DNA of 64,000 nt from Candidatus Eiseniibacteriota bacterium (GCA_963703225.1 OY969801.1:804001-868000); one strand, 5' to 3'. Numbered from the stretch's first letter, positions 18,152 to 47,453 are shown. Notes: generated by a model not told the origin, from the sequence alone. Numbers and translations: made by a program.

Positions 18152-18217
18152 CCGCACCTCTCTCCAAGACCACTTCCCGCTTGGGCGCCGGGCCGGGCGC
18201 CGCTAGTATCCACCCGC

Positions 18218-28945: not shown

Positions 28946-29057
28946 GGGGAGACCTTACCGGCGCGGCCCGGGGAAGTCGAGGGAGTAGGGCCAGAGTGGG
29001 CCGGCCCCTATCGCCGGCCAAAATTGAGCCGATTCGTTTTGACAGCGATGGGGCCGC

Positions 29058-31630
29058 GTGGTAACAATCGGCTGGCTTTCCGGAGCCGCCCCGAAAAGGC
29101 TCCGCGAGACGCCTGCCCCGATTGACGAACACCACGGACGGAGTCTACCACGAAGCAGCGCGTCACAATCGCCACGCATCCCGCCCGCTTCGGGCGCCTC
29201 ACCGGCACTTTCGCCGCTCTATTCTTCGTCTTTGTCCTGCTCTCTCTTCTCCGCGCCACCCGCCGCCGCCCAAACCGCCGATGATTTGAAGCGGCAGGCC
29301 GAGCAGATGGGCGTGAAGTCGGAGGCGGAGGCGATCCGCAAGGCCAAGGAAGCCGGGCTCACGCGCGACCAGATCCGCCAGGCGCTTCGAGAGGCCGGAT
29401 ACAGCGACGCGAAGGCGGAGGAAATCATCGGCGGGGGCGCCGCGAGCTCCGCGACCGGGAGCGCCGGGTCCTCGTTCACCGCGCCCTCGATTCTCGATTC
29501 AGCCGCGGTGGCTCCGGCAATGGTTCCGCCTCCGCGGGGCGACGCTCAAGCCCGAGGATTATCCCGAGTTCACCAAGGAGATCGCGCGGCGCGTTCCCGG
29601 CGCGCCCGCCATCCTTCCCTTCGGATACGAGATCTTCGGCTACGTCGCGTCGACGTTCGAGCCTCTGGCGGCGGGTCCGGTCGATCCCGACTATCCGATC
29701 GGCCCCGGCGACGAGGTCATCATCTCCGTCTGGGGCGACAACGAGTTCACGCACGCCGCCATCGTGACCCGCGAGGCCACGATCAGCGTGCCCGACATCG
29801 GCCAGGTCGTGCTGAACGGCCTCACGCTCTCCCAGGCCAAGCGCCTGATCACGGACCGGCTCGGCATGGTCTACTCGGGAATTCGGGCGCGCCGGCCCAC
29901 GACGTTCGTCGACGTGACGCTGGGCAAGCTCCGCACCATCCAGGTCTTCATCCTGGGCGACGTGGTCCGCCCCGGCGGCTACACGATCTCCTCGGTGAGC
30001 ACCGTGCTGAACGCGCTCTATAACGCCGGCGGTCCCACCTCCCGCGGCTCGATGCGCGACATCCGGATCATCCGGCACAACCAGATCTGGAAGGACGTCG
30101 ACCTCTACGGATACATCCTCACCGGCAACAAGGCCGAGGACGTGCGGCTCCAGAGCGGCGACGTGGTCTTCGTGCCGCCGGCGGGGAAGGTGGCCGCGGT
30201 CCTGGGCCAGATCCACCGGAGCGCCATCTACGAGCTGGCGCCGGGCGAAGGATTCCGGGATCTCTTGAGGCTTGCCGGCGGGATTCAGTCGACCGCCGTG
30301 GAGACTCGCGCGCTCGTGGACCGGGTGGTCCCGTTCGGGCAGCGCGACTCGCTGAGGGGCGAGGATCGCATCGCGCTGGATCTCCCTCTCCGCGAGATCC
30401 TGGCGGACAGCACGCAGAATCCCGACCTGTTCGACCGCGACATCATCCAGATCTTCCGGGTGGGGGAGGAGCGGAAGAACACGGTCTCGATCGCGGGGAG
30501 CGTGGTGATGCATCCCGGCACCTACGAGCTGCGGCCCGGGATGAGGGTTTCGGACTTGCTGAACGACGCCGGCGGGTTGAAGCCCGACGCGTACATGGAT
30601 CGCGCGACGCTGGTGCGGACCTCCGAGGACCGGCGGCGCAGCACGAAGCCCTTCAACGTGAGGCTCGCGCTGGAGCACGAGCCCACGAACGACCTGGAGC
30701 TGCAGAAGCTGGACGAGATCACGCTCCGCTCGATCTGGGAGATTCAGGAGCGGCACACGGTCTCGATCGGCGGGAGCGTCCGCGAGCCCGGGACCTACGA
30801 ATACCTCGACGGCATGACCGTGATGGATCTGATCTTCCGGGCCGGCGGGCTGAAGGAGTCGGCGTACAAGCAGGAGGCGGAAGTCTCCCGCGTGGACTCG
30901 ACCACGATCGTGACCAAGCAGGCCGCGGAGGTCTTCCGGGTTCCGATCTCGGCGAACTACGCCGTCCACTCCGCCGACACCACGTTCGCGCTCCAGCAGT
31001 GGGACCAGGTATACGTCCGGGAGATTCCCGACTGGCAGATGCAGCGCAACGTGAAGGTCACGGGCGAGGTGATCTATCCCGGCACCTATTCGATTGAAGG
31101 ACAAGGATGAACGGCTGTCGTCGGTGCTGGCCCGGTCGGGCGGGTTGAAGCCGACGGCCTATCCGAAAGCGGCGGTGTTCGTGCGAAACAAGGGTGGCGC
31201 GGGGCGGCTGGCGCTGGACGTGAAGGACGTGGCCAAGCACAAGGACAGCCGGTACGACATCGCTTTAGAGGATGGCGACAGCCTCAACATTCCCAAGGAG
31301 CCGAAGACGGTCAAGGTCGCCGGCGCGGTCGGATTCCCATCGAGCGTGCTCTACGAGCGGGGGAAGTCGCTGGGCTATTACATCGACCAAGCCGGTGGAT
31401 ACACCGACGAGTCGGACAAAGGCCGGGTGAAGATCGTCCAGCCGGACGGGAAGGTGAAGCCGGTCAAGAAAATGTGGTGGGACCCGGAGCCGCAGCCCGG
31501 CGCATTGGTCGTTGTGCCGCCGAAACCGCCCGTGGAGAAGAAGGAGACACTCAAGGACGTCGCAACCATCATGACCATCATTACGGGGGCCGTGACGACG
31601 ATCTTTATCGCCCATGAGGCGACGAAGTGA
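29058..31630 (+). CDS. polysaccharide export protein, Wza/GumB-like with multiple SLBB domains; start uncertain, frame disruptions near 29500-29560 and 31080-31110
   Basis: PGDEVIISVWGDNEFT..., repeated SLBB-like units, C-terminal segment ending at 31630. Confidence 0.7.
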
Positions 31631-32568
31631 CGGGACGCCGTCCCGGGCGCCCTTGGTGGGACATCGCCGCAAACCTGAGCCGACTCCCGCAGCTTGCCAT
31701 TGTTGGGATCGCGGGCGCGGTGCTCGCGTATGCCGCATCGAAGTTGGTACCTGCTGACTACGAATGCCAGTCGGCCCTCCTGCTGGACTCAGGCACGACG
31801 CTCTCTGGCCTCGGGAACGTCGCAAGTCTCGTAAACATGGTTCAACCGACTCTGCTCGGCGTGTCCGGTGAGGGCCAGCGCGCCTACAGCTATATCGCCG
31901 TTGCGCAAAGCCGGACCATTCTGGAGCGGATTCTCCAGAGCTCCACCCCTGAGGGCAATGGTGCCAGGCTCTTCTTCGAAGATTTCGCTCCCACCTCGGG
32001 CAGCCCGGCACGAAGAATGGAGACGGCAGTCTCCCGTCTCCGGGGCCACGTCCGCGGGAACTATTCCTCTAAGACATTCATTCTCACGATCACGGTCGGC
32101 GATAGGCACCCCGGGCACTCCAAGGCCATCACTGAAAATCTCATTCGCTACCTTCGGGAATTCAACTCAGCGACCCGAGTGTCTCGTGCGCGAGAGGCAC
32201 GGGAGTTCATCGCACAAAGGACCCTCGATGCAGGTGATTCATTGGCCGAGGCGGAGAGCCGCCTCGTCGAATTTAGGCGGGAAAATGTTCGAATTGGCGG
32301 GTCCCCTACGTTGCAATTGACCGAGACAAGGCTAACGAGGCGCGTTCGCATTTGCGAGGATGCATACTCACTCCTGTCCCAACAACTCGAAATCGCCAGA
32401 ATTGAAGAGAAACGAGAGGCGCCCACCTTCTCAGTCGTCGACAGTCCTCAGGAATCCAGTCGGCCCAGGCGAGTGCCGGGCCCGCTGGCTCTAGTGCTGG
32501 GCGGCGTCTGCTCCGTTGGCATACTATTGTTGGCCTCGGCAGTTAGGCAGGCGTTGCGTGGCGATTAG
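31627..32568 (+). CDS. polysaccharide chain-length determinant (Wzz/PCP-like) protein
   Basis: 313 aa; GTG overlaps upstream stop; N- and C-terminal TM helices flanking a periplasmic helical region. Confidence 0.6.
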   Translation: MTGRRPGRPWWDIAANLSRLPQLAIVGIAGAVLAYAASKLVPADYECQSALLLDSGTTLSGLGNVASLVNMVQPTLLGVSGEGQRAYSYIAVAQSRTILERILQSSTPEGNGARLFFEDFAPTSGSPARRMETAVSRLRGHVRGNYSSKTFILTITVGDRHPGHSKAITENLIRYLREFNSATRVSRAREAREFIAQRTLDAGDSLAEAESRLVEFRRENVRIGGSPTLQLTETRLTRRVRICEDAYSLLSQQLEIARIEEKREAPTFSVVDSPQESSRPRRVPGPLALVLGGVCSVGILLLASAVRQALRGD

Positions 32569-34012
32569 TTCCAAGCCCCTACGCGGAGCGTGGCTTGGGA
32601 ACGCCGGGAATGGGGCCTGGATCCTAGCTGCCGCTCTGGCGGGAGGGGCGGCAGGCTCCAGTGTCGTGGGATTGGTGTTTGTTGGGACGGCAGCATTGGC
32701 GATCGCTGCCGTGTTCTTTCCTCTGCAGGCTGCGATTTGCTCCATCTGCATCCGACCGCTGATTGATGTCTTCTGGTACGCGGAGGTTCTTGCCTCTGGC
32801 GGAATCGCGATCAATGCCCAATCAATCCTGGGCGCCATAATTCCCCCTGCGATCCTCTTGGGTTTGCTCCGTGACGGATGGAAACCGAAACCCTCGCCTG
32901 TGATCTTGCTAGCTGGCCTCTACGGCGTGGTGTGTTTGTGGGACGTTTGGGTTGCGCCGAGCCGGGGAGTGGCGCTGGGCGACTTCGGTAGGTTGGCCCT
33001 TCCTCTCGTTTTCGTCGCTCTTGGGGAGCATCTGGCCACGACGGGACTTCGGCCGATGCGCCTTGCAGCGATCCTAGCCCTCTACAGTGTCGTGGCCGTT
33101 GCTACCGGGGTAATGCAGATTGCTGGGTTCATCTCACCAAGGGAAGGCGCGGTCACATCATCCGGTGAGTTGACCAGACTTACAGGCCTCTACCACCACC
33201 CCCTGGACCTAGCCTGGCGCTCAGCGATCAGTCTGCCGTTCGCCCTGATGCTGGCGCGGTCGTTAGAGGGACGGCTGCAAAGAGTCACCATGTATGGTTG
33301 GGCGGCTGTGTGCACAATCATCGCATTCGCTTCGCTCGCCCGGGTGGCGTTCGTTGCAACCACAGTGCAGGTCGCCATGTGGCTGTGGAAGCAAGGACGA
33401 CGGAGATCGGTTGTAGTTGCTGTCCTTCTGACGGCCATGGCCGCGAGCCTGTTCTCCCCTGTAAGGATTGCTGTGGAGCAAGCGATCCGTCCTGTTGTCG
33501 AGGGCAAGTACTACGAATTGGGCACGGGCCGAGGTCTTTTGTTTGTTGCCCAGGCCCGGGCATTTCTGGCCGGTACTCCCATACAGAAGGTGCTAGGTCA
33601 TGGGCTTCACACCAGCCCTGGATTGACCGTTGAATACAACCCAATACCATTCGTTGACCTCGGAGGACCCGAGTCGATTGAAGGGCAGCTCAGCGCCCAC
33701 AATCAGTTCCTGAGGCCCCTCGTGGAGTCGGGAATCGTAGGGGCAGTGTCGCTCCTCCTGATCTTTGTTGGAGGTTTTGCTGCTTCCCAACGTCTCACGA
33801 CGGTGACGCTGGATCCTCACTTGAGAGAACTGGGTGTGGCAGTTGGAGTCCTCTTTACTGGTTTTGCTGTCTACTCGCTGAGCTCGCAGCCTCTTGATCG
33901 CCCTCCGATCACATGGCCGCTTTGGGCCGTCCTCGGCTACGTAACGCAGGTCGTCAGCAAGGCGGCTGCCATGGGCCCCTCGACGCCCAATCCGGACGGA
34001 GGGAACCCGTGA
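32558..34012 (+). CDS. O-antigen ligase/polymerase family membrane protein (Wzy_C-like)
   Basis: Multi-TM protein with periplasmic loop SAHNQFLRPLVESGIVG typical of the O-antigen ligase/Wzy family; start codon uncertain. Confidence 0.65.
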   Translation: MAISSKPLRGAWLGNAGNGAWILAAALAGGAAGSSVVGLVFVGTAALAIAAVFFPLQAAICSICIRPLIDVFWYAEVLASGGIAINAQSILGAIIPPAILLGLLRDGWKPKPSPVILLAGLYGVVCLWDVWVAPSRGVALGDFGRLALPLVFVALGEHLATTGLRPMRLAAILALYSVVAVATGVMQIAGFISPREGAVTSSGELTRLTGLYHHPLDLAWRSAISLPFALMLARSLEGRLQRVTMYGWAAVCTIIAFASLARVAFVATTVQVAMWLWKQGRRRSVVVAVLLTAMAASLFSPVRIAVEQAIRPVVEGKYYELGTGRGLLFVAQARAFLAGTPIQKVLGHGLHTSPGLTVEYNPIPFVDLGGPESIEGQLSAHNQFLRPLVESGIVGAVSLLLIFVGGFAASQRLTTVTLDPHLRELGVAVGVLFTGFAVYSLSSQPLDRPPITWPLWAVLGYVTQVVSKAAAMGPSTPNPDGGNP

Positions 34013-34014
34013 CC

Positions 34015-35508
34015 ATGCCGGTGGCAGAGGCTAGGCGCGGTGAACTCCGGTTGGAGCAACCGCTGAGGACGGGCCGCTTTAGGATTCCGGCTGTCCTGCA
34101 AACCTACCTCGTGCTCCTTGCCGGGCACATCGTTTCGAAGGGCCTAGTATTTGTAAGTACGGCCATGGCGACTCGAGCCATTGGACCCGCACAGGCGGGA
34201 ATTCTCGGTGCTTGCACAACGATTGTCGCGTACCTGTGGGTGTTGGCCAACTGCGGCATGGATGTCATCGGAACGAGGCAAATCGCGGGTCGACGGGAAC
34301 GTGTACGCGATACAGCCCTCGAGATCGTCCCGTTCCGCCTCTCGGTAGCGACCGGGGCAACGATCCTGTCCATCATTGCCGGGTTTACCGGCCTGGTTCC
34401 AATTGGGCTGATCTTGCCGCTTGGTGTTGCAGTCATAGCGTACTCCTTTCGAGTCGACTGGATATTGCTGTCGATGGGTATGGACCGCGCGATTTCCTTC
34501 GCTGCAGTTGCGCGCGAAGCGACCTACCTGCTGCTAGTCGCGATCTTCGTGGTGACGTCGCGAGCATTGACTTCGGCGCTCTGGGCATTCGCCCTCGCAG
34601 AAGTGGTCTGGTCAATCCTAACGCTCCTGACCGCGGGGACCTGGCTCCGCCGCTCCGGGTCACAGCGTGACCCGAGGACATGGTCAGGGAGGAGCGGACT
34701 GATGTGGGCCGGCGTGCCTGTCGCCCTCATGAGCCTGATGGCGCTCAGCTACAACAAGATCGACTCCTTGATGCTCGTATGGATGCGCAGTAGCCACGAG
34801 GCGGGGATCTACCTGGCCGCCTATTCGGTGGTCTTCGGCGCCAGTGGACTCGCTGGCGTGTTTTCGAGGTCGGCGTTCGCGCACATGGTGCGTGCGGGGG
34901 GGGAATCCCCCACCGCTGCGTTACCAGGGGGCGTCCGCGTGAGCATCTACACCGCCTGCTGTGGGGCTGCCGTTGCGACTCTCATCTATGCATGGGCCGG
35001 CCACATCATGAGTGGTGTCTACGGCCCGGAATTTGCCGCCGGTGCCGGCCCTCTACGCACTCTGATTTGGTGCGTCTGGGCTGCTTACGCGTACGGTGTT
35101 TTGCAGCAGGGGGCGATCGTCGCTGGCAGGCAAGGGGCGGTCGCCATTGCGACCGTTGCGGCAGTTGCCCTGAATATCGGACTCAATACTTGGCTGATTC
35201 CTAGAGAGGGAATGCAGGGGGCGGCGGTTGCAAGCGTCGTGGCAGAGTGTGCCGTTCTTGTAGGTGTCCTTCTTACGTACAGGCGCCAACGTGGTTTCGC
35301 GGTTCTTGCTGCGGCCTTGTTGTCAACGGCCCTGGCAGCTTGGCTCGCGATGGCGATCATGGGCACGGAGATTCACAAGGTGTCCGCCGGCTCTATCGTC
35401 CTTGCTGCGGCCACATTCATTACCGTCGCGTTAGGTGTAACTCTTCCGCTCACCCAGCTTGTCGGTGGAGGAAATGCTCGTGCAAGGCACGTCGGCCATA
35501 CAACCTAG
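34015..35508 (+). CDS. polysaccharide flippase (Wzx/MOP superfamily)
   Basis: ATG 2 nt after upstream stop; ~12 predicted TM helices; MOP-flippase-like pattern. Confidence 0.65.
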   Translation: MPVAEARRGELRLEQPLRTGRFRIPAVLQTYLVLLAGHIVSKGLVFVSTAMATRAIGPAQAGILGACTTIVAYLWVLANCGMDVIGTRQIAGRRERVRDTALEIVPFRLSVATGATILSIIAGFTGLVPIGLILPLGVAVIAYSFRVDWILLSMGMDRAISFAAVAREATYLLLVAIFVVTSRALTSALWAFALAEVVWSILTLLTAGTWLRRSGSQRDPRTWSGRSGLMWAGVPVALMSLMALSYNKIDSLMLVWMRSSHEAGIYLAAYSVVFGASGLAGVFSRSAFAHMVRAGGESPTAALPGGVRVSIYTACCGAAVATLIYAWAGHIMSGVYGPEFAAGAGPLRTLIWCVWAAYAYGVLQQGAIVAGRQGAVAIATVAAVALNIGLNTWLIPREGMQGAAVASVVAECAVLVGVLLTYRRQRGFAVLAAALLSTALAAWLAMAIMGTEIHKVSAGSIVLAAATFITVALGVTLPLTQLVGGGNARARHVGHTT

Positions 35509-36692
35509 AAACGAGCAGGTGCGGACTGCGGCACCAGCAGTCGGTCCGGCCCGTTTCGCACGCCTACCGCGATTGCTTGTGATTGCACAGTTACCGCCGC
35601 CAACGCATGGCGTAAGCGCCATGAACGAACTTCTGATTGGTTCCCGCGCGCTCCGCAGCAGGTTTCAACTGGATGTTCTACCGTTGAAGTTTACCCGCTC
35701 CATCAAGGACGTGGGATATGCGAGCGCACGTAAGCTTGCCCAACTGCCGGCCGTATGGGCCCGACTAATCGCCAAGTGCATCGTGCGCACCCCGAACGCG
35801 ATCTACTTCACACTGGCGCCGACTGGAATCGCATTCTTTCGCGATCTCACCATCGTCGCTATCGGCTAAGACACTCCGGATACCCATGGTCTTGCACCTG
35901 CATGGCCGAGGCATCGATGAATACCGGGACGACGCTGTTAGAAGGTGGTTCTACAAATGGACCTTCGCTGGTACCTGGGTCATTCTCCTGTCTACTCGGC
36001 TCTACGGGGAAATCGCGCCTTACGTCAAGCGTGAGCGGTGTTGGGTCGTCCCGAACGGAGTGCCACCAAGCGATGAATTGGACGGGGAATCGGCACCCGT
36101 ATCCCGGACGGGAATAGTACGCATTGTGTTTCTGTCCAACATGATTCCGGAAAAGGGACCACTTGAAGTTGTTGGAGCAGTCGAGCGGCTGCATCGGGAG
36201 GGAATCCGTGTGACCGCCAGCTTGGTGGGGGAGGAACAATCGACCGCGTTTCAGAGAGTGCTCTTGAGCCGCATTAGTGCTGCGGGCCTTGGCGACATCG
36301 TGGAGTATAGCGGCCCAATGCATGGCCGGGCTAAGTGGCAATGCCTTCTTCGGAGTGACATTTTCGTGTTTCCATCGTCGTACAAGTATGAGGCGTTCCC
36401 GCTGGTCATCCTAGAAGCCATGGCGGCGAGCCTGCCAGTAGTGGCTACTGATATCGGCGCCGTTGGCGACATGGTTGTCGACGGCGAAACTGGGTTTCTC
36501 GTGCCGCAGGGTGATTCGGAGGCTCTTGCAGACAAGCTCCGGATGCTTTGCAACGATTCAGACCTAAGACACCGGATGGGTGCGGCGGGGAAGGAACGGT
36601 TCCAGGCGAAGTTCTCGTTTGAGCGATTCGAGACCTCGATGGCCAAGGTGCTCCAGGCGGCCATGGGCACACGGGGGCGCGTGGATGCATAG
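35459..36692 (+). CDS. glycosyltransferase family 4 (GT-B); frame disrupted with in-frame stop at 35867-35869
   Basis: N-terminal half ends at TAA; C-terminal half in next frame has EAFPLVILEAMAASLPVVATDIGAVGDMVVDGETGFLV (GT4 E-x7-E region). Confidence 0.65.
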
Positions 36693-37932
36693 TAATCGTC
36701 AGTCAGGGGCCGTTGTCACGGGGATGCCAGCCTCTGTCGTGGCAAGCCAAAGCGCCGTCCGGCCTGATCCGCCGAAAATCCGCGTCGCTGTATTTCAGCG
36801 GATGGTGCCTGAGTATCGAGTACCCGTTCTAGATAGGCTCGGCGCAGTAGACGACCTAGAACTGACAATCTATTCGACGCGGTTCGCGGGCCCATTCGCC
36901 CACGCGACTGCAGTTAGCGTCGGTGAGCTTCGCGTGGGGCGCGTCCGGCTCCACCCTCGCGTTCTCTCGCAGGAGGTTCGCCAGGGGTACGACGTCCTGG
37001 TCTGTGAGGGGGGTCTTTCACTGGTGACGTCCGTCGCCCTGGCGCTCGGCCGCGCGCGAGTTCCTGTGGTCTGGTGGACCTCACTTTGGAACCGAAGGGG
37101 AGGCGTCCAGGTCGGGAGCGGCCTCCGAGGAATGCTGACGGCAGCGGTACTCAGGCGCTGTGCCGCAGTTGCGACGTACTCAAACACCGCTAAGCGGGCT
37201 GCGATTGGGGCCATGGGCCGGTCTGACAGGGTCTTTGTCGCGGCCAATTCACTGGACACAGTCCTCCTTGGTTCCGCGGAGCGCGAATGGCGGGAGGACG
37301 GCCGGCACCTTCGCAGCTTCGCCGCCGCGAATCGCCTGACGGGCGCGCGGATCGCGCTTTTCTCTGGCCGGATGACGAGAGATAAGCGGATTCCTGACCT
37401 GATTGAAGCTTTCGACCAGCTTGCAAGGCACTATCGCGAGGAACCGCTTCGACTAGTCCTCCTTGGCGATGGACCCGAGCGGAAACGGATTGAGCGGGAG
37501 ATTCAATACCGCGGGCTCGGGTCTCGGATCCTGCTGTGCGGCGATGTAAGGGACTACAGGGTCTCTTGCCCCTATTTTCTGCTCGCCCGGGCGGTGGTCC
37601 TTCCCGGAACGGGAGGCTTAGCACTGAATCAAGCGATGACGCATGGCGCTCCCGTGATTGCTGCGAGAGGGGACGGAACCGAGCTCGACCTGATTCAAGA
37701 AGGAATCAATGGATTCCACGTTGCAACCGGTGACGTTGGAACCCTAAGGAATCGAATGGAGCAATTGCTCCTCGCGACCCCCGATGAATGGCGCCTAATG
37801 TCTGAGGCCGCACGGTCGGCCATTCGAAGCCGTGCGAACGTGGACGCAATGATATCTGGTCTTGTAGCGGCCATTCGACATGCGGCCGATTCTCGACCTG
37901 GGTTCAAGATCCAGCAGGCAGTGCGAGACTAG
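36685..37932 (+). CDS. glycosyltransferase family 4 (GT-B)
   Basis: ATG overlaps upstream stop; C-terminal LNQAMTHGAPVIAARGDGTELDLIQEGINGFHV motif. Confidence 0.75.
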   Translation: MHSNRQSGAVVTGMPASVVASQSAVRPDPPKIRVAVFQRMVPEYRVPVLDRLGAVDDLELTIYSTRFAGPFAHATAVSVGELRVGRVRLHPRVLSQEVRQGYDVLVCEGGLSLVTSVALALGRARVPVVWWTSLWNRRGGVQVGSGLRGMLTAAVLRRCAAVATYSNTAKRAAIGAMGRSDRVFVAANSLDTVLLGSAEREWREDGRHLRSFAAANRLTGARIALFSGRMTRDKRIPDLIEAFDQLARHYREEPLRLVLLGDGPERKRIEREIQYRGLGSRILLCGDVRDYRVSCPYFLLARAVVLPGTGGLALNQAMTHGAPVIAARGDGTELDLIQEGINGFHVATGDVGTLRNRMEQLLLATPDEWRLMSEAARSAIRSRANVDAMISGLVAAIRHAADSRPGFKIQQAVRD

Positions 37933-37933
37933 C

Positions 37934-39916
37934 ATGTGCGGAATTGCGGGATTCTGGGGGCCAGACTCGACTGAGAGAGTCCGTTGGATGACAAGTCTGA
38001 TGGTCCATCGCGGGCCCGACGATGGTGGCGTCTGGACGTCTGAGTCACGCCCGCTTGCCCTGGGAAGCAGACGGTTGAAGATAATAGACCTTACGCCCCA
38101 CGGGCATCAACCCATGGTGTCGCGCGACGGCACGCACGTGATTACATTCAACGGCGAGATCTACAACCATCCAGAACTCCGTCGGGAGCTCGAACAAGAC
38201 GGTCAGACGTTCAGGTCGCGGTCCGACACCGAAGTGCTCTTGAATGTACTGACAACCTGGGGTGTGGAAGGCATCACGCGACTGAACGGCATCTTCGCAT
38301 TCGCACTCTGGAACGAGACTTCTGGTCAGCTCACCCTGGGGAGGGACAGGCTTGGCGTGAAGCCTGTCTACTACGCGTGCGTGCAGGACTCGTTCTGCTT
38401 CGCTTCTGAGATCAAGGCTATTCTCGGATCTGGTCTGGTCGAACCACGGCTGGATCCTAAGGAACTCGAGAGCTACCTGCGCCTGTTGTGGGTTCCTGAG
38501 CCCGGGACCCTTTTTGCCGGCATTCGAAAACTTGAGCCCGGAACCATTCTTCAATGGAACGGGAGTAGCGTTAGGACGCAACGGTACTGGGATGTCCCAC
38601 TCCCAAACGACGGACCCCCGCTCTCGGAGGCGGCCGCGCTCGTCGGGGGAGTGTTGGAGCGCTCCATTCGCCGGCAACTACGCGCAGACGTCCCGGTCGG
38701 CGCCTTCCTGAGCGGTGGAATTGACTCAACAGCAATCACGGCGATTGCTGCCCGCGAGATGGGCCGGGCTGTCCGCACCTATACCATTCGTTTCGAATCC
38801 CAGGACAGGGCTCATGAAGGCGCGATCGACGACGCGCGGTATTCACGGCTCGTGGCCGACTGGGCCGAAGTGGAGCATCGAGAGATAGTGATCTCTCCGG
38901 ACGTACTCTCGCTTCTACCAAAGATGGTGTGGCACCTTGAGGATCCCGTGGCGGATCCAGCGGCCATCAATACATTCCTCATTTGTGAAGCAGCACGCGC
39001 AGAGAGCACGGTATTGTTGAGCGGGTCGGGTGGAGACGAGCTATTTGGGGGGTACCGAAAGTATCCGGCGACGATTCTCGCTGGGAGTTACCAGCGACTC
39101 CCCAAATTTCTTCGCGAGTGGGTCATTGCTCCGTTGGCCCGGCGACTGCCAGTTGTTGTTGGTAAGTCCGGTCTCCGAGACGTTCGATTGGCCAAGAAGT
39201 TTTTGCGGTACTCGGGGCATGAGTACCTCGAGAGGTTCCTGGGGTATTCAACCTATTACGATGGTGTGGAGCTATCGGAGCTCCTCGGCCGGGGCGGCTC
39301 ACGATCTGAGAATGACTACATGGGGCTGGATCGCCTCAGGGCGTCATGGGACGCGAGATCATCCGGGGATTTCGTTGATCGGATGCTATACCTAGATCTC
39401 AAGTACTACCTTCCCGGCCTTGGCCTAGCGTACATGGATAAGGCAAGCATGGCGGCTTCCGTGGAAGTACGCGTGCCACTCCTGGACGACGAGCTCGTCG
39501 AGACCGTTTCTCGCTTGCCTGGTGACAAGAAGGTGAAGGGGTCAAAGACCAAGATTGTCTTAAGGGAGGCCCTCCGAGGAAGGATTCCAAACGCGATTCT
39601 CCGGCGCCGAAAGGCGCCATTTTCAGCTCCGATCCGATCTTGGCTCAGAGGACCATTAGAGCCGGCCGTTTCGGAGCTCTTGGGCCCCTCGCAACTCCGG
39701 ACGCGGGGGCTTGTCGACCCGGAAATGGTGGAACGAATCCTTGCCGAGAATCGGCGGGGCATTGAAGACCATTCATTGAGAATATGGGCTCTGCTAACGC
39801 TTGAAATCTGGCACCAGGAGTTTTTTGATCACCGAAATCGCTACGCCATGAAGTCAGAGGCCCACTCGGTCCCGGAAGCGCTTCGCGTTGGGGGAAGAAC
39901 GGAGGTGTCCGCATGA
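37934..39916 (+). CDS. asnB: asparagine synthase (glutamine-hydrolysing)-like amidotransferase
   Basis: N-terminal MCGIAGFWG nucleophile Cys2, GATase-II then synthetase domain SGGIDST PP-loop. Confidence 0.85.
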   Translation: MCGIAGFWGPDSTERVRWMTSLMVHRGPDDGGVWTSESRPLALGSRRLKIIDLTPHGHQPMVSRDGTHVITFNGEIYNHPELRRELEQDGQTFRSRSDTEVLLNVLTTWGVEGITRLNGIFAFALWNETSGQLTLGRDRLGVKPVYYACVQDSFCFASEIKAILGSGLVEPRLDPKELESYLRLLWVPEPGTLFAGIRKLEPGTILQWNGSSVRTQRYWDVPLPNDGPPLSEAAALVGGVLERSIRRQLRADVPVGAFLSGGIDSTAITAIAAREMGRAVRTYTIRFESQDRAHEGAIDDARYSRLVADWAEVEHREIVISPDVLSLLPKMVWHLEDPVADPAAINTFLICEAARAESTVLLSGSGGDELFGGYRKYPATILAGSYQRLPKFLREWVIAPLARRLPVVVGKSGLRDVRLAKKFLRYSGHEYLERFLGYSTYYDGVELSELLGRGGSRSENDYMGLDRLRASWDARSSGDFVDRMLYLDLKYYLPGLGLAYMDKASMAASVEVRVPLLDDELVETVSRLPGDKKVKGSKTKIVLREALRGRIPNAILRRRKAPFSAPIRSWLRGPLEPAVSELLGPSQLRTRGLVDPEMVERILAENRRGIEDHSLRIWALLTLEIWHQEFFDHRNRYAMKSEAHSVPEALRVGGRTEVSA

Positions 39917-42114
39917 AGCAGCTCGCGCTGGACCCTCATTCGGGTGCCATCTCCATCATGGAGTTGGCCAATCCCTCTTTGCGACCAGACGAGGCGCTTG
40001 TGCGGGTTAGATGTTCGGTCGTCTCATCTGGGACCGAGTTGGCAAAGGTGAGCCTTGCTGGCCAGTCCTTGGTGAATAAGGCACGGAGTCGACCGGAACA
40101 GGTCACAAACGTCATCCATAGCGCGCGGATGGATGGAATAGCCGCAACGGTGCGGAAGGTCAAAGAGCGTCTCGGCACTCCGATGCCGCTGGGCTACTCC
40201 TTGGCAGGTGTCGTTGAAGAGTGTGGAGCGGCGTGTGGCGGATTGTGGCCAGGGGCAGCGGTTGCTTGCGCCGGGGCAACCGCCTCGCACGCTGAGATGG
40301 TTGCCGTTCCTTCTATGCTTGTGGTCCCCGTACCGCCAGATGTGGCCCTCGAGGATGCTGCGTACACGACGCTCGGTGCGATCGCCATGCACGGGTTGAG
40401 AACGGGTAACGTTCAGCTAGGTGATCGGGTGCTGATCATTGGCCTTGGCCTCCTGGGCCAGATTGCAACCCGCCTCTGTGTCGCCGCTGGCGCTCACGTG
40501 TTTGGGGTCGATCTGCGCGAAGACAGGGCACAGCTGGCTGTCGACTCTGGGGCGGACGCTGCGCACACCGCGCTCGACTCAGCCACGGCCAGGGCGGTTA
40601 CCGCTTGGAGTGGAGGAAGAGGGGCCGATGTGGTCCTGATCACCGCGGGAGGAACGGACAATTCGCCGTTGGTCCTGGCGGGCGATGCGGCGCGTGACCG
40701 CGCCCGGGTGGTGGTCGTGGGTGCGGTCGAGCTTGCCGTCCCGAGAGAGACGTTCTATCACAAAGAGCTCTCGCTCGTGGTTAGCAGGTCCTACGGCCCC
40801 GGCCGGTACGACCGTGACTATGAGGAACGCGGGATTGCCTATCCAGTGGGCTTCGTCCCCTGGACGGAGCGAAGAAACATGGAGGAGTTCCTGTCCCTCC
40901 TGAGCGCCGCGCGGATCACACTCCAGGGCCTCAAGGGCGAAACGGTGCCATTCGAAGATGCGCCGGCCGCATACCAGCGGCTTTCGGGGCAGAATCCGCC
41001 AATCTCCGTCGTCTTCCGCTACGGGGAGCCCGACTCCTCGCCGAGTACGATCGAGCCTCCTCCCGAACGCACAGAGCTGCTGCCTCATGTACTCACAAGC
41101 AATTGGCGTGACTCCGCGTCGCGTTTCGAGCCAAGACCCCTCCAAGTCAGCTTCGTTGGCGTTGGAAATTTCGCGACAGGCACCCTGCTCCCTGCTATTC
41201 GAGGGGCAAGCGACGCGCTCCTTGTCACTGCCGTAGCCTCGACCCCACTCAAGGCGGAGTCGGTGAAGCGCCGCTGGAAGTTCGCAGCCTCTGGGTCAGA
41301 CCCAAGTGAGGCGTGGTCGGGACACGACACGCAAATCGTGGTCCTCGCGACCCGGCACGATACGCACGCGGCCTTCGCGGAGGCTGCCCTGCGCGCCAAC
41401 AAGGCGGTCTTCGTGGAGAAACCTCTAGCACTTCTCCCAGCGGAATTTGACCGGGTAAAGACAACGCTCGACGCAACCGCGGGGAGGCTCATGGTGGGCT
41501 TCAATAGGCGGTTCGCACCGGCGGTGCGCTGGGCCGTCGATTGCCTTGGGTCCGATCGCGGGAACGCGCGCCTGCTGTTGCGGGTGAACGCCGGGCCACT
41601 CCCTTCGGATCACTGGCTTCTCGACCCTAAGATTGGAGGAGGGAGGCTCCTCGGCGAAGGCTGCCACTTCATCGATCTGGCGTGTTTTCTTGCCGGGTCG
41701 GAACCGGTCGAGGTATTGGCGCGGGGCCGCGACCGGGTTTCTGGCAATGTGCCGAACCAGGATTTTTGCGTTGAGCTGACCTTCGCCAACGGGACGACAG
41801 CCCTCATTGAATACGTCTCCAGCGGAGACCCCACTCTCGGCAAGGAACGTTACGAGATCCACCGGCAGGGAATATCGATCGTCATAGATGATTTCCGACG
41901 AGCGGAATGCCGCCGGTCGGGGAAGGTAAAGAGACACGCATGGGCGGCGCGGGACCGGGGCCACAGGGCCGAAGTACACGAATTTCTTGAGGCTGTGCGA
42001 ACCGGCGCCCCTACTCCCATCCCCGAAGCACAAAGCGTCCTATCGACCGCTCTTACCCTTGCAGCGGCGAGGTCCCTGCGCGAGGGTCGAGCTCTGGGGG
42101 CTGATGCTTGGTGA
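39913..42114 (+). CDS. bi-domain oxidoreductase: N-terminal Zn-dependent alcohol dehydrogenase (MDR) fused to C-terminal Gfo/Idh/MocA domain
   Basis: 733 aa; ATGA overlap with asnB; MDR Rossmann GLGLLGQ; C-terminal VGVGNFA...FVEKPLA and EGCHFIDL Gfo/Idh/MocA motifs. Confidence 0.75.
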   Translation: MKQLALDPHSGAISIMELANPSLRPDEALVRVRCSVVSSGTELAKVSLAGQSLVNKARSRPEQVTNVIHSARMDGIAATVRKVKERLGTPMPLGYSLAGVVEECGAACGGLWPGAAVACAGATASHAEMVAVPSMLVVPVPPDVALEDAAYTTLGAIAMHGLRTGNVQLGDRVLIIGLGLLGQIATRLCVAAGAHVFGVDLREDRAQLAVDSGADAAHTALDSATARAVTAWSGGRGADVVLITAGGTDNSPLVLAGDAARDRARVVVVGAVELAVPRETFYHKELSLVVSRSYGPGRYDRDYEERGIAYPVGFVPWTERRNMEEFLSLLSAARITLQGLKGETVPFEDAPAAYQRLSGQNPPISVVFRYGEPDSSPSTIEPPPERTELLPHVLTSNWRDSASRFEPRPLQVSFVGVGNFATGTLLPAIRGASDALLVTAVASTPLKAESVKRRWKFAASGSDPSEAWSGHDTQIVVLATRHDTHAAFAEAALRANKAVFVEKPLALLPAEFDRVKTTLDATAGRLMVGFNRRFAPAVRWAVDCLGSDRGNARLLLRVNAGPLPSDHWLLDPKIGGGRLLGEGCHFIDLACFLAGSEPVEVLARGRDRVSGNVPNQDFCVELTFANGTTALIEYVSSGDPTLGKERYEIHRQGISIVIDDFRRAECRRSGKVKRHAWAARDRGHRAEVHEFLEAVRTGAPTPIPEAQSVLSTALTLAAARSLREGRALGADAW

Positions 42115-43351
42115 CCTGACCGCTGAGCGGGCGCTCGTCCATACGCTGGAGCGCGCGGAGCGGGCCGGATGGAAGGGAGCCGATCCCTACGACGGGTTGC
42201 TCTCGACCATTGGGGCAGCGGCCATTCCCCTTGGATCGCTGGCTCGGATGGCCCTCCTGCAAACGGTGACGAGGTCTGGGCTAGTTCGCCGGGTCGTCAA
42301 CCCCACGAGATCCACAAATCCGAAGGGTCTGGGACTGTTCCTCGGGTCTGTTTTGAGGGGCCGGGACACCCTGGGCCCTCGTCGCGCGCGAGATCTTGGG
42401 GTGGCGCTCCTGTCCGAGATTGAGTTGGCAGCTAGGAAGGCGCCGCACGGGATCGGTTGGGGGTACCCGTTTCCTTGGCAGTCCAGATTCTTCTATGCGC
42501 CGGCCGGAACATCCAACGCGGTAGTTACCGCCACCGTAGGCTGGCACCTTCTTGATTGGGCTGATGAGATGGCATCGGATCGCGCGAGGTCGCTGGGATT
42601 CGGTGCTGCTCAATTCCTATCGCAATCGTTGGTGCATCAGGAGGCACCTTCCAGTGGAGCCTCAGTCTCCTACATCGAGTCGAGCCGAGACCGCATCGTC
42701 AATGTATCCATGCTGGCGGCCAGACTCCTGATGCGGGTCGGCGCCGACGCCCCACGCCGCCCAAGCCAGGCCGTCACGGCAGCCGAGGCGGCGTTGATGA
42801 GAGCCCAGGCCGACCGGCTCCTTCAATTCGGGCTCTCCCAGCAGCTCCCATCCGGATTTTGGAAGTACGCTGTTGAGGCTCGCGGCAATTGGGTGGACTC
42901 CTACCACATGGGGTTCATCCTGGAGTCGCTTCTCTCCCTCCGTACTCTGGGAGCCCCGGTCCCCAACGCACCTTTGCTCCGGGGACTGAGTGCCTACGCC
43001 TCGTTCTTCGATCCCGACGGCGGGGCACGATACTCAAGTGGGAGCCGGTCCTTTTACGATGCACACTCCGCGGCACAGGGAATCGTCACCTACACTTCCC
43101 TGGCCAGTGACGACGGTATGCCCTCCGCCGCTCGCGAGGATGCCGCGGAGCGGGCTGGCCGGATCGTGGACTGGTCGCTGAGAAATTTGTGGATCTCTCC
43201 AAAAGGCTATTTCGCCTATAGGGTGATTCGTGGTAGGAGGGACGAGCGGGACTACTCCCGATGGGTCCAGGCGTGGATGGCTCTGGCCCTTGGAACCGCA
43301 CTAGGAAAGCCAAGCCAGGCTGAGGTGGTGGAAGCGCAGGAAGCGCGGTAA
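42104..43351 (+). CDS. hypothetical protein within polysaccharide locus
   Basis: 415 aa from ATG overlapping upstream stop; no confidently recognised family. Confidence 0.5.
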   Translation: MLGDLTAERALVHTLERAERAGWKGADPYDGLLSTIGAAAIPLGSLARMALLQTVTRSGLVRRVVNPTRSTNPKGLGLFLGSVLRGRDTLGPRRARDLGVALLSEIELAARKAPHGIGWGYPFPWQSRFFYAPAGTSNAVVTATVGWHLLDWADEMASDRARSLGFGAAQFLSQSLVHQEAPSSGASVSYIESSRDRIVNVSMLAARLLMRVGADAPRRPSQAVTAAEAALMRAQADRLLQFGLSQQLPSGFWKYAVEARGNWVDSYHMGFILESLLSLRTLGAPVPNAPLLRGLSAYASFFDPDGGARYSSGSRSFYDAHSAAQGIVTYTSLASDDGMPSAAREDAAERAGRIVDWSLRNLWISPKGYFAYRVIRGRRDERDYSRWVQAWMALALGTALGKPSQAEVVEAQEAR

Positions 43352-43380
43352 TCCGTCAGGGATTGGCGGGGGGTGGTGGG

Positions 43381-44472: not shown

Positions 44473-44491
44473 CGCCGATTGAGAACCATCA

Positions 44492-46064
44492 GTGGAGGCA
44501 GCTGGGACGCTGCCGGGAGGATCGGAGCTGAAGCCGGAAGGAGCACCGGCTCGCGAGCGCGAGACCGGAAGCATCGAAATCCGACAGCAGCAGGTCGCTG
44601 GGCGTCGCGCTTACGACCCGGCGGCTCGCGAAGCACCCTTCCAGCCCAGGGCCAGGCGGCCCGCCGGGCACAGTGCTCTCGTTTTCGCGACGGTTCTTGG
44701 CGATCTCGCATCCGTGGCGATCGGGACGTTGGCAACCTCCACCCTCCGATACCCAATCGCTGAGACATTCTCATCGCTGCTCACGCCCGAAGGATCGACC
44801 CTTGTTCTTCTAGCTTCCCTAGCGTGGGTTGGCCTCCTCTCCGCCCGCGGGGCCTACTGGCCGAAGGTCACTCTTGGACGCGGTCGCCAGGCCGTTGTCA
44901 TCGTCGGGGCGGGGTTGCCCGCCTGGATCGTCGTCCAGCTCGCTGCATCCTGGCTCAAGGTCACCGTGCCGCTCGACAGCAGGCTGGTCATGGCCCTATC
45001 GCTACCCGCCACCCTGCTGGGCTTGGTGCTGTTCAGGCTGTCCATCGTGCGCCTTGGGGCGCACCAAGTGTATCGCCGGCGCGGTCAAGGGCTTCTCCTA
45101 GCTTTGAGCGCTTCCGACCCGTTTGCTCGGGGGGCGAGCAGCCCGTGGGCCCCGCATTTCCGTGGCAGGGTGGTCGTGCACCAGTACCTGGGTCCTCTCA
45201 GTCCCGGTCGTGCGCAGTCGCTTGTGGCCGAATATGAAGCAGAAGAAGTACTGCTGGAAACGGGTGTCCTTCCAGGAGCGGACACTCTGCAGATCGCCTT
45301 CGCGTGTCTGGATGCAGGGGCCGAGGTTCAGCTCGTACCTGCGGAGGGCCGCGCATCCGGGCGTGGACTCTCCGAGGATCGGGTCGGCGCGCTGCCGATG
45401 CTGCACCTCCGACGATTCGACCTAGCAGGTCCAGAGGTCATCTTCAAACGAATGGCGGACGTCGTTGGGTCGACGCTTGGCCTCTTGCTTCTCTCGCCCT
45501 TGTTTGCCGCGCTCGCGCTTGCGGTCAAGATCAACTCATCCGGCCCGGTCATTTACACGTCGGAGAGAATCGGCAAGCGCGGCCGGAGATTTCGGATGTT
45601 CAAGTTCCGAACGATGTTCCACGGGAACGACTCGAGGGAATATGAGAAGTACCTCGGTTCTTTATCCGGCAGGGAAGACCGGCGGTTGTCACGGCGGACG
45701 GGACGCACATCTACAAGCCGCCCACATGATCCGCGCGTCACCGCGGTCGGGGCTTGGCTCCGGAGGCTCTCCCTGGACGAGCTCCCACAGCTGCTTCAAC
45801 ACCCTTCTTGGCAGAATGAGCCTCGTCGGTCCTCGGCCGTGCCTGCCGTATGAGTGGGAGCTGTATGCGCCGTGGCAGCGGCGACGCCTCGATGTGACGC
45901 CCGGCTGCACAGGGCTGTGGCAGGTGAAAGGGAGGAGTCGGGTTCGATTCGAAGACATGGTGATACTCGACCTCTACTACGCGCATCACGGAACTCTTCT
46001 GAGCGACTTGCGGCTGATGGCTCAGACTATCCCCGTCATGGCGCAGGGACGCGGAGCGTACTGA
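44492..46064 (+). CDS. undecaprenyl-phosphate sugar phosphotransferase (initiating sugar transferase, WbaP/EpsL-like); frame disrupted near 45785-45800
   Basis: TM N-terminus; C-terminal bacterial sugar transferase motifs (PVIYTSERIGKRGRRFRMFKFRTM, SLDELPQL / LLGRMSLVGPRP, PGCTGLWQV) across two frames. Confidence 0.75.
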
Positions 46065-47410: not shown

Positions 47411-47453
47411 GGTTGTTGCGACTGGGTCGAGGCAAACGGAGGAGGGAAGCGCG

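What the first reader, a model, noticed from the sequence alone, without database searches (positions are those of the whole stretch)
29058..46064. Seventeen-kilobase Wzx/Wzy-type surface polysaccharide locus on one strand
Eleven co-directional genes with overlapping or tightly spaced boundaries encode export (Wza-like), chain-length control (Wzz-like), polymerase/ligase-like (Wzy_C), flippase (Wzx), two GT4 glycosyltransferases, an AsnB-type amidotransferase, a bi-domain oxidoreductase, an unknown protein, a DUF354-like protein and the initiating sugar transferase placed last. The combination of amidotransferase and dual oxidoreductase suggests an amidated and oxidised or epimerised sugar in the repeat unit. 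The order (exporter first, initiating transferase last) is atypical.
Basis: partly seen in the sequence, partly recalled or inferred. Interest (0 to 1): 0.45.

Follow-up and report, generated by a model that had tools for sequence, protein, structure and literature searches.

The report
Wzx/Wzy polysaccharide locus with VpsJ-like module
This is an ordinary Wzx/Wzy-type surface-polysaccharide gene cluster from an uncultured Eisenbacteria-like bacterium, and its one interesting part is a poorly studied four-gene sugar-tailoring set that probably makes an epimerised, amidated amino-uronic acid.

Summary
Window 29058-46064 carries eleven co-directional, tightly packed genes. Profile searches support ten of the eleven assignments: Wza-like exporter, Wzy, Wzx, two GT4, AsnB-type amidotransferase, MDR+Gfo/Idh/MocA bi-domain oxidoreductase, DUF354 and a Bac_transf initiating transferase. 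The "Wzz-like" gene has no Pfam hit and rests on a weak TIGR03007 match, its position and a two-helix topology.

Similar frameshifts occur across the window, and an independent read assembly carries an intact GT4a. They are most likely assembly errors, not decay.

The "unknown" protein is a cytoplasmic (alpha/alpha)6 barrel. It belongs to a large family with no Pfam model, whose members JGI labels VpsJ. VpsJ was proposed in 2026 as a C5-epimerase making L-GulNAcA in Vibrio polysaccharide.

In 80 genomes this family sits beside WecB/WecG/UGDH genes, the bi-domain oxidoreductase, DUF354 and AsnB. DUF354 and WecG almost never co-occur.

A related MAG shares both flanks (wza, and a Wzi-like gene) but has a different, lower-GC3 middle, so this is a swappable cassette.

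The gene order is not atypical. Overall it is a new member of a known kind, of modest interest.

The parts
29039..29068 (+). Promoter-like site TTGACA-18-AACAAT just upstream of wza. Weak evidence only.
   Evidence: 10 of 12 matches and the best site in the region. The total count (4) is not above shuffles (3.0 +/- 1.7), and sigma-70 consensus may not apply to this phylum.
29058..31630 (+). Wza-like outer-membrane polysaccharide exporter (OPX), about 790 aa when repaired. It has Poly_export, five SLBB stretches and a C-terminal hydrophobic helix. It is split over three frames by +1 insertions near 29535 and at 31092, with a possible further shift near 29262 in the signal peptide. The true start is uncertain.
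   Evidence: Full-length homologues are 755-785 aa. L002 reads through without the extra G at 31092. GC3 is 0.83-0.89, like the host genes.
31627..32568 (+). PCP/Wzz-like co-polymerase candidate, 313 aa, with two transmembrane helices (residues 20-38 and 288-306) and no kinase domain.
   Evidence: Support is only a weak TIGR03007 match and the topology; there is no Pfam hit.
32558..34012 (+). Wzy-type polymerase (Wzy_C), at least 10 transmembrane helices.
34015..35508 (+). Wzx flippase (Polysacc_synt), at least 11 transmembrane helices.
35480..36692 (+). GT4 glycosyltransferase a, 403 aa when one G at 35864/35865 is removed. Its orthologues sit upstream of AsnB-BiOx-AA6 in Bacteroidota loci.
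   Evidence: The Logan contig from ERR15459715 calls an intact 403-aa gene here.
36685..37932 (+). GT4 glycosyltransferase b, 415 aa.
37934..39916 (+). AsnB-type glutamine amidotransferase, WbpS-like, 660 aa. It has the N-terminal Met-Cys and the SGGIDS motif.
   Evidence: Best family is TIGR03108 at 497 bits, below the 817-bit cut-off. PMC7468200.
39913..42114 (+). Bi-domain oxidoreductase, 733 aa: an N-terminal MDR/ADH-like domain in which GYS replaces the GHE zinc motif, and a C-terminal Gfo/Idh/MocA domain.
   Evidence: A homologue of at least 600 aa is present in 36 of 80 AA6 loci.
42104..43351 (+). AA6: a cytoplasmic (alpha/alpha)6-barrel protein of the VpsJ-like family, and a candidate uronate C5-epimerase.
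   Evidence: PMC13463779.
43381..44472 (+). DUF354 protein, 363 aa. It has a GT-B fold and is a remote relative of UDP-GlcNAc 2-epimerase. It is a candidate glycosyltransferase replacing WecG.
   Evidence: PMC4520260.
44492..46064 (+). Initiating polyprenyl-phosphate hexose-1-phosphate transferase (Bac_transf, WbaP/WcaJ type), 523 aa when the extra C at 45794 is removed.
48846..50423 (-). Wzi-like outer-membrane protein. It forms the conserved right flank of the cassette.
   Evidence: E 1.6e-7, 31.1 bits against a 30.1-bit cut-off. (84% aa identity and syntenic with L002).
18200..19343 (+). WecB-type UDP-GlcNAc 2-epimerase, itself frameshifted near 18790. It could supply UDP-ManNAc. It is not contiguous with the locus.

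Best explanation
This is a Wzx/Wzy-dependent capsule or exopolysaccharide locus of an Eisenbacteria-like bacterium.

Proposed pathway. Only the domain assignments are shown; each step is inferred from them.
1. A WbaP/WcaJ-type transferase loads a hexose-1-phosphate onto the polyprenyl carrier.
2. DUF354 (inferred) and two GT4 enzymes extend this to a repeat unit of about four sugars.
3. Wzx flips the unit and Wzy polymerises it.
4. A kinase-less PCP and a long multi-SLBB Wza-type channel export the polymer. A Wzi-like protein on the far flank may anchor it.

Tailoring module (inferred). Four cytoplasmic enzymes modify one residue: the WbpS-like AsnB amidotransferase, the bi-domain oxidoreductase, the VpsJ-like (alpha/alpha)6 barrel and DUF354. 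The residue is most likely a ManNAcA-type hexosaminuronic acid. It would be C5-epimerised towards L-GulNAcA and its carboxyl converted to the amide.

Frameshifts. Each is a one-base insertion introduced by the assembly, so the locus is probably functional.

Cassette structure. The low-GC3 middle (31.6-46.1 kb) sits between conserved wza and wzi-like flanks and is exchangeable.

Sub-confidences: pathway type 0.9; frameshifts are artefacts 0.8; identity of the sugar 0.35.
For: Pathway type:
- Pfam and NCBIfam assignments.
- Membrane topologies.
- Packed co-directional genes.

Frameshifts are artefacts:
- Deleting a single base restores full-length domains at each of the four sites.
- A Logan contig with identical AsnB, BiOx, AA6 and DUF354 proteins has an intact 403-aa GT4a.
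- L002 lacks the extra G in wza.
- Comparable shifts break a histidine kinase, WecB and a Ser/Thr kinase (twice). PPK and a subtilase also appear split.
- Another ENA assembly fragments BiOx and AsnB instead.

Cassette:
- wza is 91% identical in DNA and the right flank 77% identical to L002, while shared genes in the middle are only 35-60% identical at protein level.
- GC3 is 0.64-0.71 in the middle against 0.80-0.91 in the flanks.
- Two Logan contigs break 26 bp before the PCP gene.

Tailoring module:
- The AA6 model has pLDDT 94.7.
- JGI names three homologues VpsJ.
- Neighbours in 80 loci: WecG 31, WecB 29, UGDH 10, BiOx 36, DUF354 33, AsnB 21.
- Apparent fusion proteins join AA6 to DUF354, GT4 or AsnB.
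- A Halococcus locus has AA6, WecB, UGDH, DUF354 and AsnB, and Halococcus morrhuae wall polymer contains gulosaminuronic acid (PMC4187196).
- WbpS-family enzymes make uronamides (PMC7468200).
Against: - No UDP-sugar 6-dehydrogenase or WecG gene was found in the window. WecB lies 10 kb away.
- The link to Vibrio cholerae VpsJ is indirect, because its sequence could not be compared.
- VpsJ's own activity is proposed from genetics and has not been shown in vitro.
- The bi-domain oxidoreductase has no characterised relative, and V. cholerae VPS synthesis works without one.
- The AsnB scores below the TIGR03108 equivalog cut-off.
- The broken wza fragment is also a called protein of the 3.12-Mb NCBI/ENA contig that carries the other locus proteins, so the frameshifts are in the deposited sequence. 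Only GT4a has direct independent evidence of being intact.
- No BY-kinase is present.
Confidence: 0.7

Rival explanations
1. The locus is a decaying pseudogene cluster. The frameshifts in wza, GT4a and the initiating transferase are real, and no polymer is made.
For: There are four to five frameshifts in 17 kb. The broken wza fragment is also a called protein of the 3.12-Mb NCBI/ENA contig (P0127).
Against: All the shifts are single-base insertions with no accompanying stops or deletions, and full domains are restored by removing one base. GT4a is intact in an independent assembly. Genes unrelated to the locus are equally affected. Four shifts in 17 kb is not clearly above the window-wide rate of roughly ten or more in 64 kb.
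Confidence: 0.12
2. It is an LPS O-antigen locus rather than a capsule or EPS locus. The Wzy_C protein would be the polymerase or a WaaL-type ligase, and the kinase-less 313-aa protein would be a Wzz (PCP-1).
For: The Wzy_C family includes ligases. The PCP has no tyrosine-kinase domain, and no BY-kinase was seen nearby.
Against: A Wza-type OPX channel is the first gene and a Wzi-like gene forms the other flank. From general knowledge, O-antigen export through Lpt does not use an OPX.
Confidence: 0.15
3. AA6 is a glycoside hydrolase of the (alpha/alpha)6 type (GH76, GH88 or GH105-like) that trims or recycles the polymer. It is not an epimerase.
Against: AA6 has no signal peptide or transmembrane helix, so it is cytoplasmic. 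Its genes are adjacent to, and its proteins fused with, biosynthetic enzymes. The profile's best sequence hit in the PDB is cellobiose 2-epimerase. VpsJ genetics place the enzyme on a lipid-linked intermediate.
Confidence: 0.2
4. It is an exosortase (XrtA/PEP-CTERM) associated EPS locus.
For: The best NCBIfam names for six genes are XrtA-system families.
Against: Every one of those scores is far below its curated cut-off (for example 104 against 263, 39 against 279, 497 against 817). No exosortase turned up among the ORFs scanned.
Confidence: 0.05

Closest known systems
Vibrio cholerae VPS pathway (vps-I/vps-II; PMC13463779)
   Same: It is Wzx/Wzy-dependent. It has a WcaJ-type initiating transferase (VpsL), two GT-B transferases (VpsI, VpsD), a flippase, a polymerase, an OPX and a PCP. 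A VpsJ-type (alpha/alpha)6 enzyme acts on an amino-uronic acid, whose carboxyl then receives an amide-linked substituent.
   Different: Here DUF354 stands where the WecG-type VpsK would be. An AsnB-type amidotransferase, giving a primary amide, stands where the glycine ligase VpsH would be. An extra bi-domain oxidoreductase is present. There is no WecC, acetyltransferase or tyrosine kinase in the locus. Everything lies in one operon.
Group 1 capsule loci of E. coli and Klebsiella (wzi-wza-wzb-wzc plus a variable region)
   Same: Conserved export genes flank a variable middle of lower GC that holds wzx, wzy, the glycosyltransferases and the initiating transferase. A Wzi-like gene belongs to the conserved frame.
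   Different: There is no Wzb phosphatase or Wzc kinase. The Wza is about twice as long, with five SLBB stretches. The wzi-like gene lies on the far side and on the opposite strand.
WbpS, WbqG and PGN_1234 uronamide-forming amidotransferases (eps_aminotran_1; PMC7468200)
   Same: It is an AsnB-type enzyme with the N-terminal Cys and the ATP-pyrophosphatase motif, encoded inside a glycan locus. TIGR03108 is its best family hit.
   Different: Its score (497 bits) is below the equivalog cut-off of 817. The substrate is unknown.
AGE-superfamily sugar 2-epimerases and isomerases (cellobiose 2-epimerase, N-acylglucosamine 2-epimerase)
   Different: Sequence identity is 8-14%. A different reaction is proposed: C5 of a lipid-linked uronate.

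Membership tests
Wzx/Wzy-dependent polysaccharide pathway | Initiating polyprenyl-phosphate sugar-phosphate transferase | tested here: met
   Bac_transf covers profile positions 1-177 of 179, E 5.2e-57, after removing one base. TIGR03025 is the best NCBIfam family.
Wzx/Wzy-dependent polysaccharide pathway | Wzx flippase and Wzy polymerase, both polytopic membrane proteins | tested here: met
   Polysacc_synt E 2.9e-15. Wzy_C E 1.2e-7, just above its cut-off. At least 11 and at least 10 hydrophobic helices respectively.
OPX (Wza) exporters | Poly_export domain, SLBB domains and a C-terminal membrane helix | tested here: met
   The gene is broken by at least two frameshifts in this assembly.
PCP (Wzz/Wzc) co-polymerases | Two transmembrane helices flanking a periplasmic domain, and a Wzz/GNVR profile match | tested here: inconclusive
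   The topology is met. There is no Pfam Wzz or GNVR hit at E<=5. TIGR03007 gives E 2.8e-10, at 39 bits against a 279-bit cut-off.
PCP-2a/BY-kinase regulated export | Tyrosine autokinase domain or a separate kinase gene in the locus | tested here: not met
   No kinase domain is present in the 313-aa protein or in neighbouring genes. The ParA-like ORF at 11785-12840 sits immediately upstream of a sigma-factor gene (13089-13877), far from the locus.
VpsJ family (proposed C5 epimerase) | Sequence homology to V. cholerae VpsJ | tested here: inconclusive
   Only indirect evidence: JGI labels P0118, P0250 and P0277 as VpsJ, and P0118 matches the window protein at E 3e-26.
VpsJ family (proposed C5 epimerase) | (alpha/alpha)6 fold resembling AGE-type epimerases, and a cytoplasmic location | tested here: met
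   The VpsJ paper cites the same structural neighbour, 3WKF.
VpsJ family (proposed C5 epimerase) | Genomic association with ManNAcA supply and transfer genes (WecB, WecC, WecG) | tested here: inconclusive
   Met in relatives: 49 of 80 loci have at least one of these genes. In the window only WecB is present, 10 kb away, and no WecC or WecG was found.
VpsJ family (proposed C5 epimerase) | C5-epimerase activity | not testable with these tools
   This needs biochemistry. Even for VpsJ the activity is proposed from knockout intermediates.
eps_aminotran_1 (WbpS/WbqG) amidotransferases | Score above the TIGR03108 cut-off | tested here: not met
   497 bits against 817. It does pass the generic asparagine synthase model TIGR01536 (457 against 267).
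eps_aminotran_1 (WbpS/WbqG) amidotransferases | N-terminal nucleophile Cys and the SGGxDS ATP-pyrophosphatase motif | tested here: met
   MCGIAG at the start and FLSGGIDST in the sequence.
XrtA/PEP-CTERM EPS system | Family scores above the curated cut-offs, and an exosortase gene | tested here: not met
   All XrtA-system hits are far below their cut-offs. No exosortase was found among the scanned ORFs, although the scan was not exhaustive.
DUF354 (PF04007) | Pfam match above the gathering score | tested here: met
   76.4 bits against 22. A family profile reaches UDP-GlcNAc 2-epimerase 4neq at E 6e-4.
Wzi capsule-anchoring protein | Caps_assemb_Wzi profile match | tested here: inconclusive
   31.1 bits against a 30.1-bit cut-off, covering profile positions 67-290 of 392. 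Lectin function is untestable here.

The most novel reading that the evidence does not exclude
The bi-domain oxidoreductase, the VpsJ-like barrel and DUF354, often with a WbpS-like AsnB and a GT4, form a widespread and undescribed tailoring module found in Bacteroidota, Acidobacteriota, Verrucomicrobiota, Eisenbacteria and archaea. It would install a C5-epimerised, amidated hexosaminuronic acid. In this reading DUF354 is the missing glycosyltransferase that replaces WecG, and the oxidoreductase assists epimerisation through a transient keto intermediate or oxidises C6 after transfer.
Probability: 0.3. Interest if true: 0.55.

Novelty: new member of a known kind. Interest (0 to 1): 0.3.

Why it matters
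As a locus it is routine, since most didermic bacteria carry Wzx/Wzy clusters.

Its value is as a compact example of a gene set that recurs across many phyla and whose chemistry is barely known:
- The VpsJ-like family has at least 1341 cluster representatives at E<=1e-30 and no Pfam model. An activity was first proposed for it only in July 2026.
- The 730-aa bi-domain oxidoreductase and DUF354 have no assigned function.
- The near-exclusive alternation of DUF354 with WecG, together with the AA6 fusion proteins, gives testable hypotheses for both.

It also shows serotype-like cassette exchange between conserved wza and wzi-like flanks in an uncultured phylum. Finally, it is a warning that this assembly's gene models are riddled with +1 insertions.

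Tried and rejected
- Locus-specific pseudogenisation. Rejected because the same kind of frameshift hits unrelated genes, and GT4a is intact in an independent assembly.
- Exosortase-system membership. Rejected on curated cut-offs.
- BiOx as a replacement for the UDP-ManNAc 6-dehydrogenase. Tested by co-occurrence: BiOx and UGDH are not anticorrelated (6 of 36 against 4 of 44, p 0.33), so there is no support.
- DUF354 as a replacement for WecB. Rejected because the two co-occur in 15 loci, often adjacent.
- Direct comparison with V. cholerae VpsJ. This failed. A search seeded with the JGI-labelled homologue returned no named Vibrio protein, the afdb50 fold library was not available, and NCBIfam has no matching model.
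- The literature search for 'DUF354' mostly hit other DUF numbers. The search for 'bi-domain-containing oxidoreductase' gave nothing relevant.
- Terminator and promoter scans are at shuffle level. There are no tRNA genes.
- DUF354 and BiOx have no informative solved relatives beyond generic folds.
- I ran no further search on DUF354, because no permitted homologue set was available for an alignment.

Full report
**Observation**

The + strand between 29058 and 46064 carries a continuous run of coding sequence. Pfam gives these assignments:
- a Poly_export/SLBB exporter
- Wzy_C (E 1.2e-7, just above its cut-off)
- Polysacc_synt (Wzx)
- two Glycos_transf_1 proteins
- Asn_synthase with its glutamine-amidotransferase domain (E 1.4e-97)
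- a 733-aa fusion of an ADH_zinc_N (MDR) domain and a GFO_IDH_MocA domain
- a protein with no hit
- DUF354 (E 2.8e-21)
- Bac_transf

The gene after wza (31627-32568) has no Pfam hit even at E<=5. It has a weak TIGR03007 chain-length-determinant match. It also has the two-helix topology of a PCP, with helices at residues 20-38 and 288-306. Wzy and Wzx are polytopic. The initiating transferase has the WbaP/WcaJ-like helices. The three tailoring proteins are soluble. Gene calls on independent Logan contigs fix the starts and show overlaps, or gaps of at most 30 bp. The description is therefore correct and far beyond chance.

**Frameshifts**

Three of the eleven genes are broken.
- wza changes frame near 29535 and at 31092, and probably also near 29262 inside the signal peptide.
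- GT4a changes frame at 35865.
- The initiating transferase changes frame at 45794.

Removing one base at each site restores a 789-aa Wza (Poly_export plus 5 SLBB stretches), a 403-aa GT4 and a 523-aa transferase. In the repaired transferase Bac_transf is matched end to end and the canonical ELPQLFNxLxGxMSLVGPRP motif is present. Full-length Wza homologues are 755-785 aa.

Four lines of evidence favour assembly error:
- The Eisenbacteria MAG L002 lacks the extra G at 31092.
- A Logan assembly of run ERR15459715 encodes AsnB, BiOx, AA6 and DUF354 proteins identical to those of the window. It also has an intact GT4a of exactly 403 aa. Its coordinates imply one base fewer than in the window.
- Similar shifts break a histidine kinase, WecB and the divergent Ser/Thr kinase (twice). 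PPK and probably a subtilase are also affected.
- Another ENA assembly of near-identical sequence fragments BiOx and AsnB instead.

I conclude with about 0.8 confidence that these are insertion errors of the assembly and not decay of the locus.

**Source and cassette structure**

The proteins of the locus are on a 3.12-Mb NCBI/ENA contig. The nearest species-representative genomes are Candidatus Eisenbacteria MAGs.

L002 shares wza at 91% DNA identity (96% protein identity). It also shares the region 48836-53198 at 77% DNA identity, which includes a Wzi-like gene on the minus strand at 84% protein identity. Between these flanks, shared genes are only 35-60% identical, and the gene content differs: L002 has DegT and single-domain oxidoreductases and no BiOx.

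GC3 drops from 0.83-0.89 in wza to 0.64-0.71 from 31.6 to 46.1 kb, and rises again to 0.80 afterwards. Two Logan contigs from different runs both begin 26 bp upstream of the PCP gene, exactly at the junction. That is what strain heterogeneity would produce (inference).

The window also has 2.5 kb that L002 lacks, between the locus and the Wzi-like gene. It holds two ChrB-like genes and a weak propeller ORF. This is the familiar layout of a serotype-type cassette between conserved export genes.

**The unknown protein (AA6)**

AA6 (42104-43351) has more than 100 homologues at E<1e-25, almost all unnamed. JGI labels three of them VpsJ. A profile search finds 1341 cluster representatives at E<=1e-30. 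Neither Pfam nor NCBIfam has a matching model.

A July 2026 paper (PMC13463779) shows that deleting vpsJ stalls Vibrio polysaccharide assembly at BPP-Glc-ManNAcA. It proposes VpsJ as a new class of C5 epimerase making L-GulNAcA, and cites the same structural neighbours. I could not align AA6 with VC0926 itself, so family membership is indirect.

**Genomic association**

In 80 loci from one-per-species genomes that encode an AA6 relative, I clustered the ORFs within 8 kb and annotated the clusters. Counts of loci with each neighbour:
- WecG-family transferase: 31 (23 adjacent to AA6)
- WecB 2-epimerase: 29
- UDP-sugar 6-dehydrogenase: 10
- bi-domain oxidoreductase of at least 600 aa: 36
- DUF354: 33 (22 adjacent)
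- AsnB: 21
- initiating transferase: 46

WecB, WecC and WecG are the VpsA, VpsB and VpsK equivalents, and the AA6-WecG adjacency mirrors vpsJ-vpsK. DUF354 and WecG co-occur in only one locus (Fisher p 7e-9, not corrected for phylogeny).

The order GT4a-AsnB-BiOx-AA6 seen in the window recurs in Bacteroidota such as Hanamia caeni. Apparent fusion proteins join AA6 to DUF354, GT4 or an AsnB C-terminus; some could be gene-calling artefacts.

A Halococcus locus combines two AA6 genes with WecB, UGDH, DUF354 and AsnB. Halococcus morrhuae wall polymer contains gulosaminuronic acid and glycine (PMC4187196). This is circumstantial, because the strain is different.

**Other module members**

The AsnB has the catalytic N-terminal Cys and the SGGIDS motif. 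Its best family is TIGR03108 eps_aminotran_1, although below the equivalog cut-off. Members of that family (WbpS, WbqG, PGN_1234) convert uronic acids into uronamides, which is shown genetically for PGN_1234 (PMC7468200).

A DUF354 family profile reaches UDP-GlcNAc 2-epimerase at E 6e-4. An earlier computational study predicted a glycosyltransferase fold with few conserved catalytic residues (PMC4520260).

The oxidoreductase resembles inositol dehydrogenases, glucose-fructose oxidoreductases and WbpB in its C-terminal half, and zinc-less MDR enzymes in its N-terminal half. Its role is unknown. It is not anticorrelated with UGDH.

**Mechanism**

Shown: the domain content of a complete Wzx/Wzy pathway with OPX/PCP export.

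Inferred:
1. The WbaP/WcaJ-type enzyme starts the unit on the lipid carrier.
2. DUF354 and the two GT4 enzymes add three sugars.
3. One residue, most likely a ManNAcA-type sugar, is C5-epimerised by AA6, perhaps with redox help from BiOx. Its UDP-ManNAc precursor could come from the WecB gene at 18.2-19.3 kb.
4. The AsnB amidates it.
5. Wzx, Wzy, the PCP and Wza then flip, polymerise and export the polymer. The Wzi-like protein may retain it at the surface.

The parallel with VPS is close, nearly gene for gene. The differences are DUF354 in place of VpsK, AsnB in place of VpsH, the extra oxidoreductase, and the absence of a tyrosine kinase.

**Comparison and verdict**

The claim that exporter-first, initiator-last order is atypical is not supported. 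L002 has the same order, and in many related loci the initiating transferase is the downstream gene. From general knowledge, group 1 capsule loci begin with their export genes.

The NCBIfam resemblance to XrtA/PEP-CTERM families is below every cut-off, and no exosortase was seen.

The finding is a correct description of an ordinary kind of locus in an uncultured lineage. Its modest interest lies in the conserved and largely uncharacterised tailoring module.

Noticed in passing
window 2357-4595, 16873-18243, 18200-19343, 28100-29000 (minus strand), 56200-58577: Frame breaks occur in genes unrelated to the locus. HisKA and HATPase_c of a histidine kinase lie in different frames. WecB is split near 18790. 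A Ser/Thr kinase is in three frame pieces. PPK lacks its N-terminal domains in frame. A subtilase is separated from its FlgD_ig tail. The whole assembly seems to carry roughly one indel per 5-7 kb.
   Followed up: partly
window 46304-48836: A 2.5-kb segment is absent from the related MAG L002, where the initiating-transferase end abuts the Wzi-like gene. It holds a full ChrB (46451-47410), a second ChrB_C-only gene (47346-47915) and a weak YncE-like propeller ORF (47642-48868). No ChrA transporter was seen.
   Followed up: partly
window 48846-50423 (-) and 59147-60799 (-): Two Wzi-like outer-membrane protein genes (E 1.6e-7 and 3.6e-14). The first is the conserved right flank of the cassette. 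The second sits immediately downstream of the PPK gene of the polyphosphate cluster.
   Followed up: partly
window 51179-58577: A polyphosphate gene set: a CHAD protein (51179-52021, minus strand), two tandem Ppx/GppA genes (53332-56123) and a polyphosphate kinase (57312-58577).
   Followed up: no
window 18200-22169: A small sugar-nucleotide group upstream of the locus: WecB (+), a secreted ORF with a CxxCH motif (19397-20155), an unknown minus-strand ORF, and a DegT/WbpE-type aminotransferase (20958-22169, minus strand). These could feed the locus.
   Followed up: partly
Logan contigs of ERR15459715 and ERR12036778 (equivalent to window ~31601): In two independent runs the contig carrying the PCP-like gene starts 26 bp before it, exactly at the junction of conserved wza and the variable region. 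This suggests co-existing strains with different cassettes.
   Followed up: no
loci L001-L080: DUF354 and WecG-family transferases are almost mutually exclusive next to AA6 genes (1 co-occurrence; 33 and 31 loci; Fisher p 7e-9). BiOx goes with WecG (23 of 36 loci) and is depleted with DUF354 (6 of 36). The window's BiOx plus DUF354 combination is the rarer type.
   Followed up: yes
proteins P0390, P0393, P0399, P0418, P0432: Apparent fusion proteins of the AA6 barrel: with DUF354 (739 aa), with GT4 domains (676-863 aa) and with an Asn_synthase C-terminus. They are either Rosetta-stone links or merged gene calls.
   Followed up: partly
L066 (Halococcus sp. AFM35) 4635-12982: An archaeal locus with two AA6 genes, WecB, UGDH, DUF354 and an AsnB-like gene. 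Halococcus morrhuae wall polymer is reported to contain gulosaminuronic acid and glycine (PMC4187196).
   Followed up: partly
L002 7761-16751: The related Eisenbacteria MAG is itself fragmented by frameshifts: AsnB, DUF354, DegT and an oxidoreductase are each in two or three ORF pieces. This fits an error-prone assembly method shared by these MAGs.
   Followed up: no
window 11785-16412: A ParA/MinD-like ATPase, a sigma factor (regions 2-4), an HDOD protein and a GAF-GGDEF protein lie in a row. This is a possible motility or c-di-GMP regulatory group. The ATPase is not a capsule BY-kinase.
   Followed up: no
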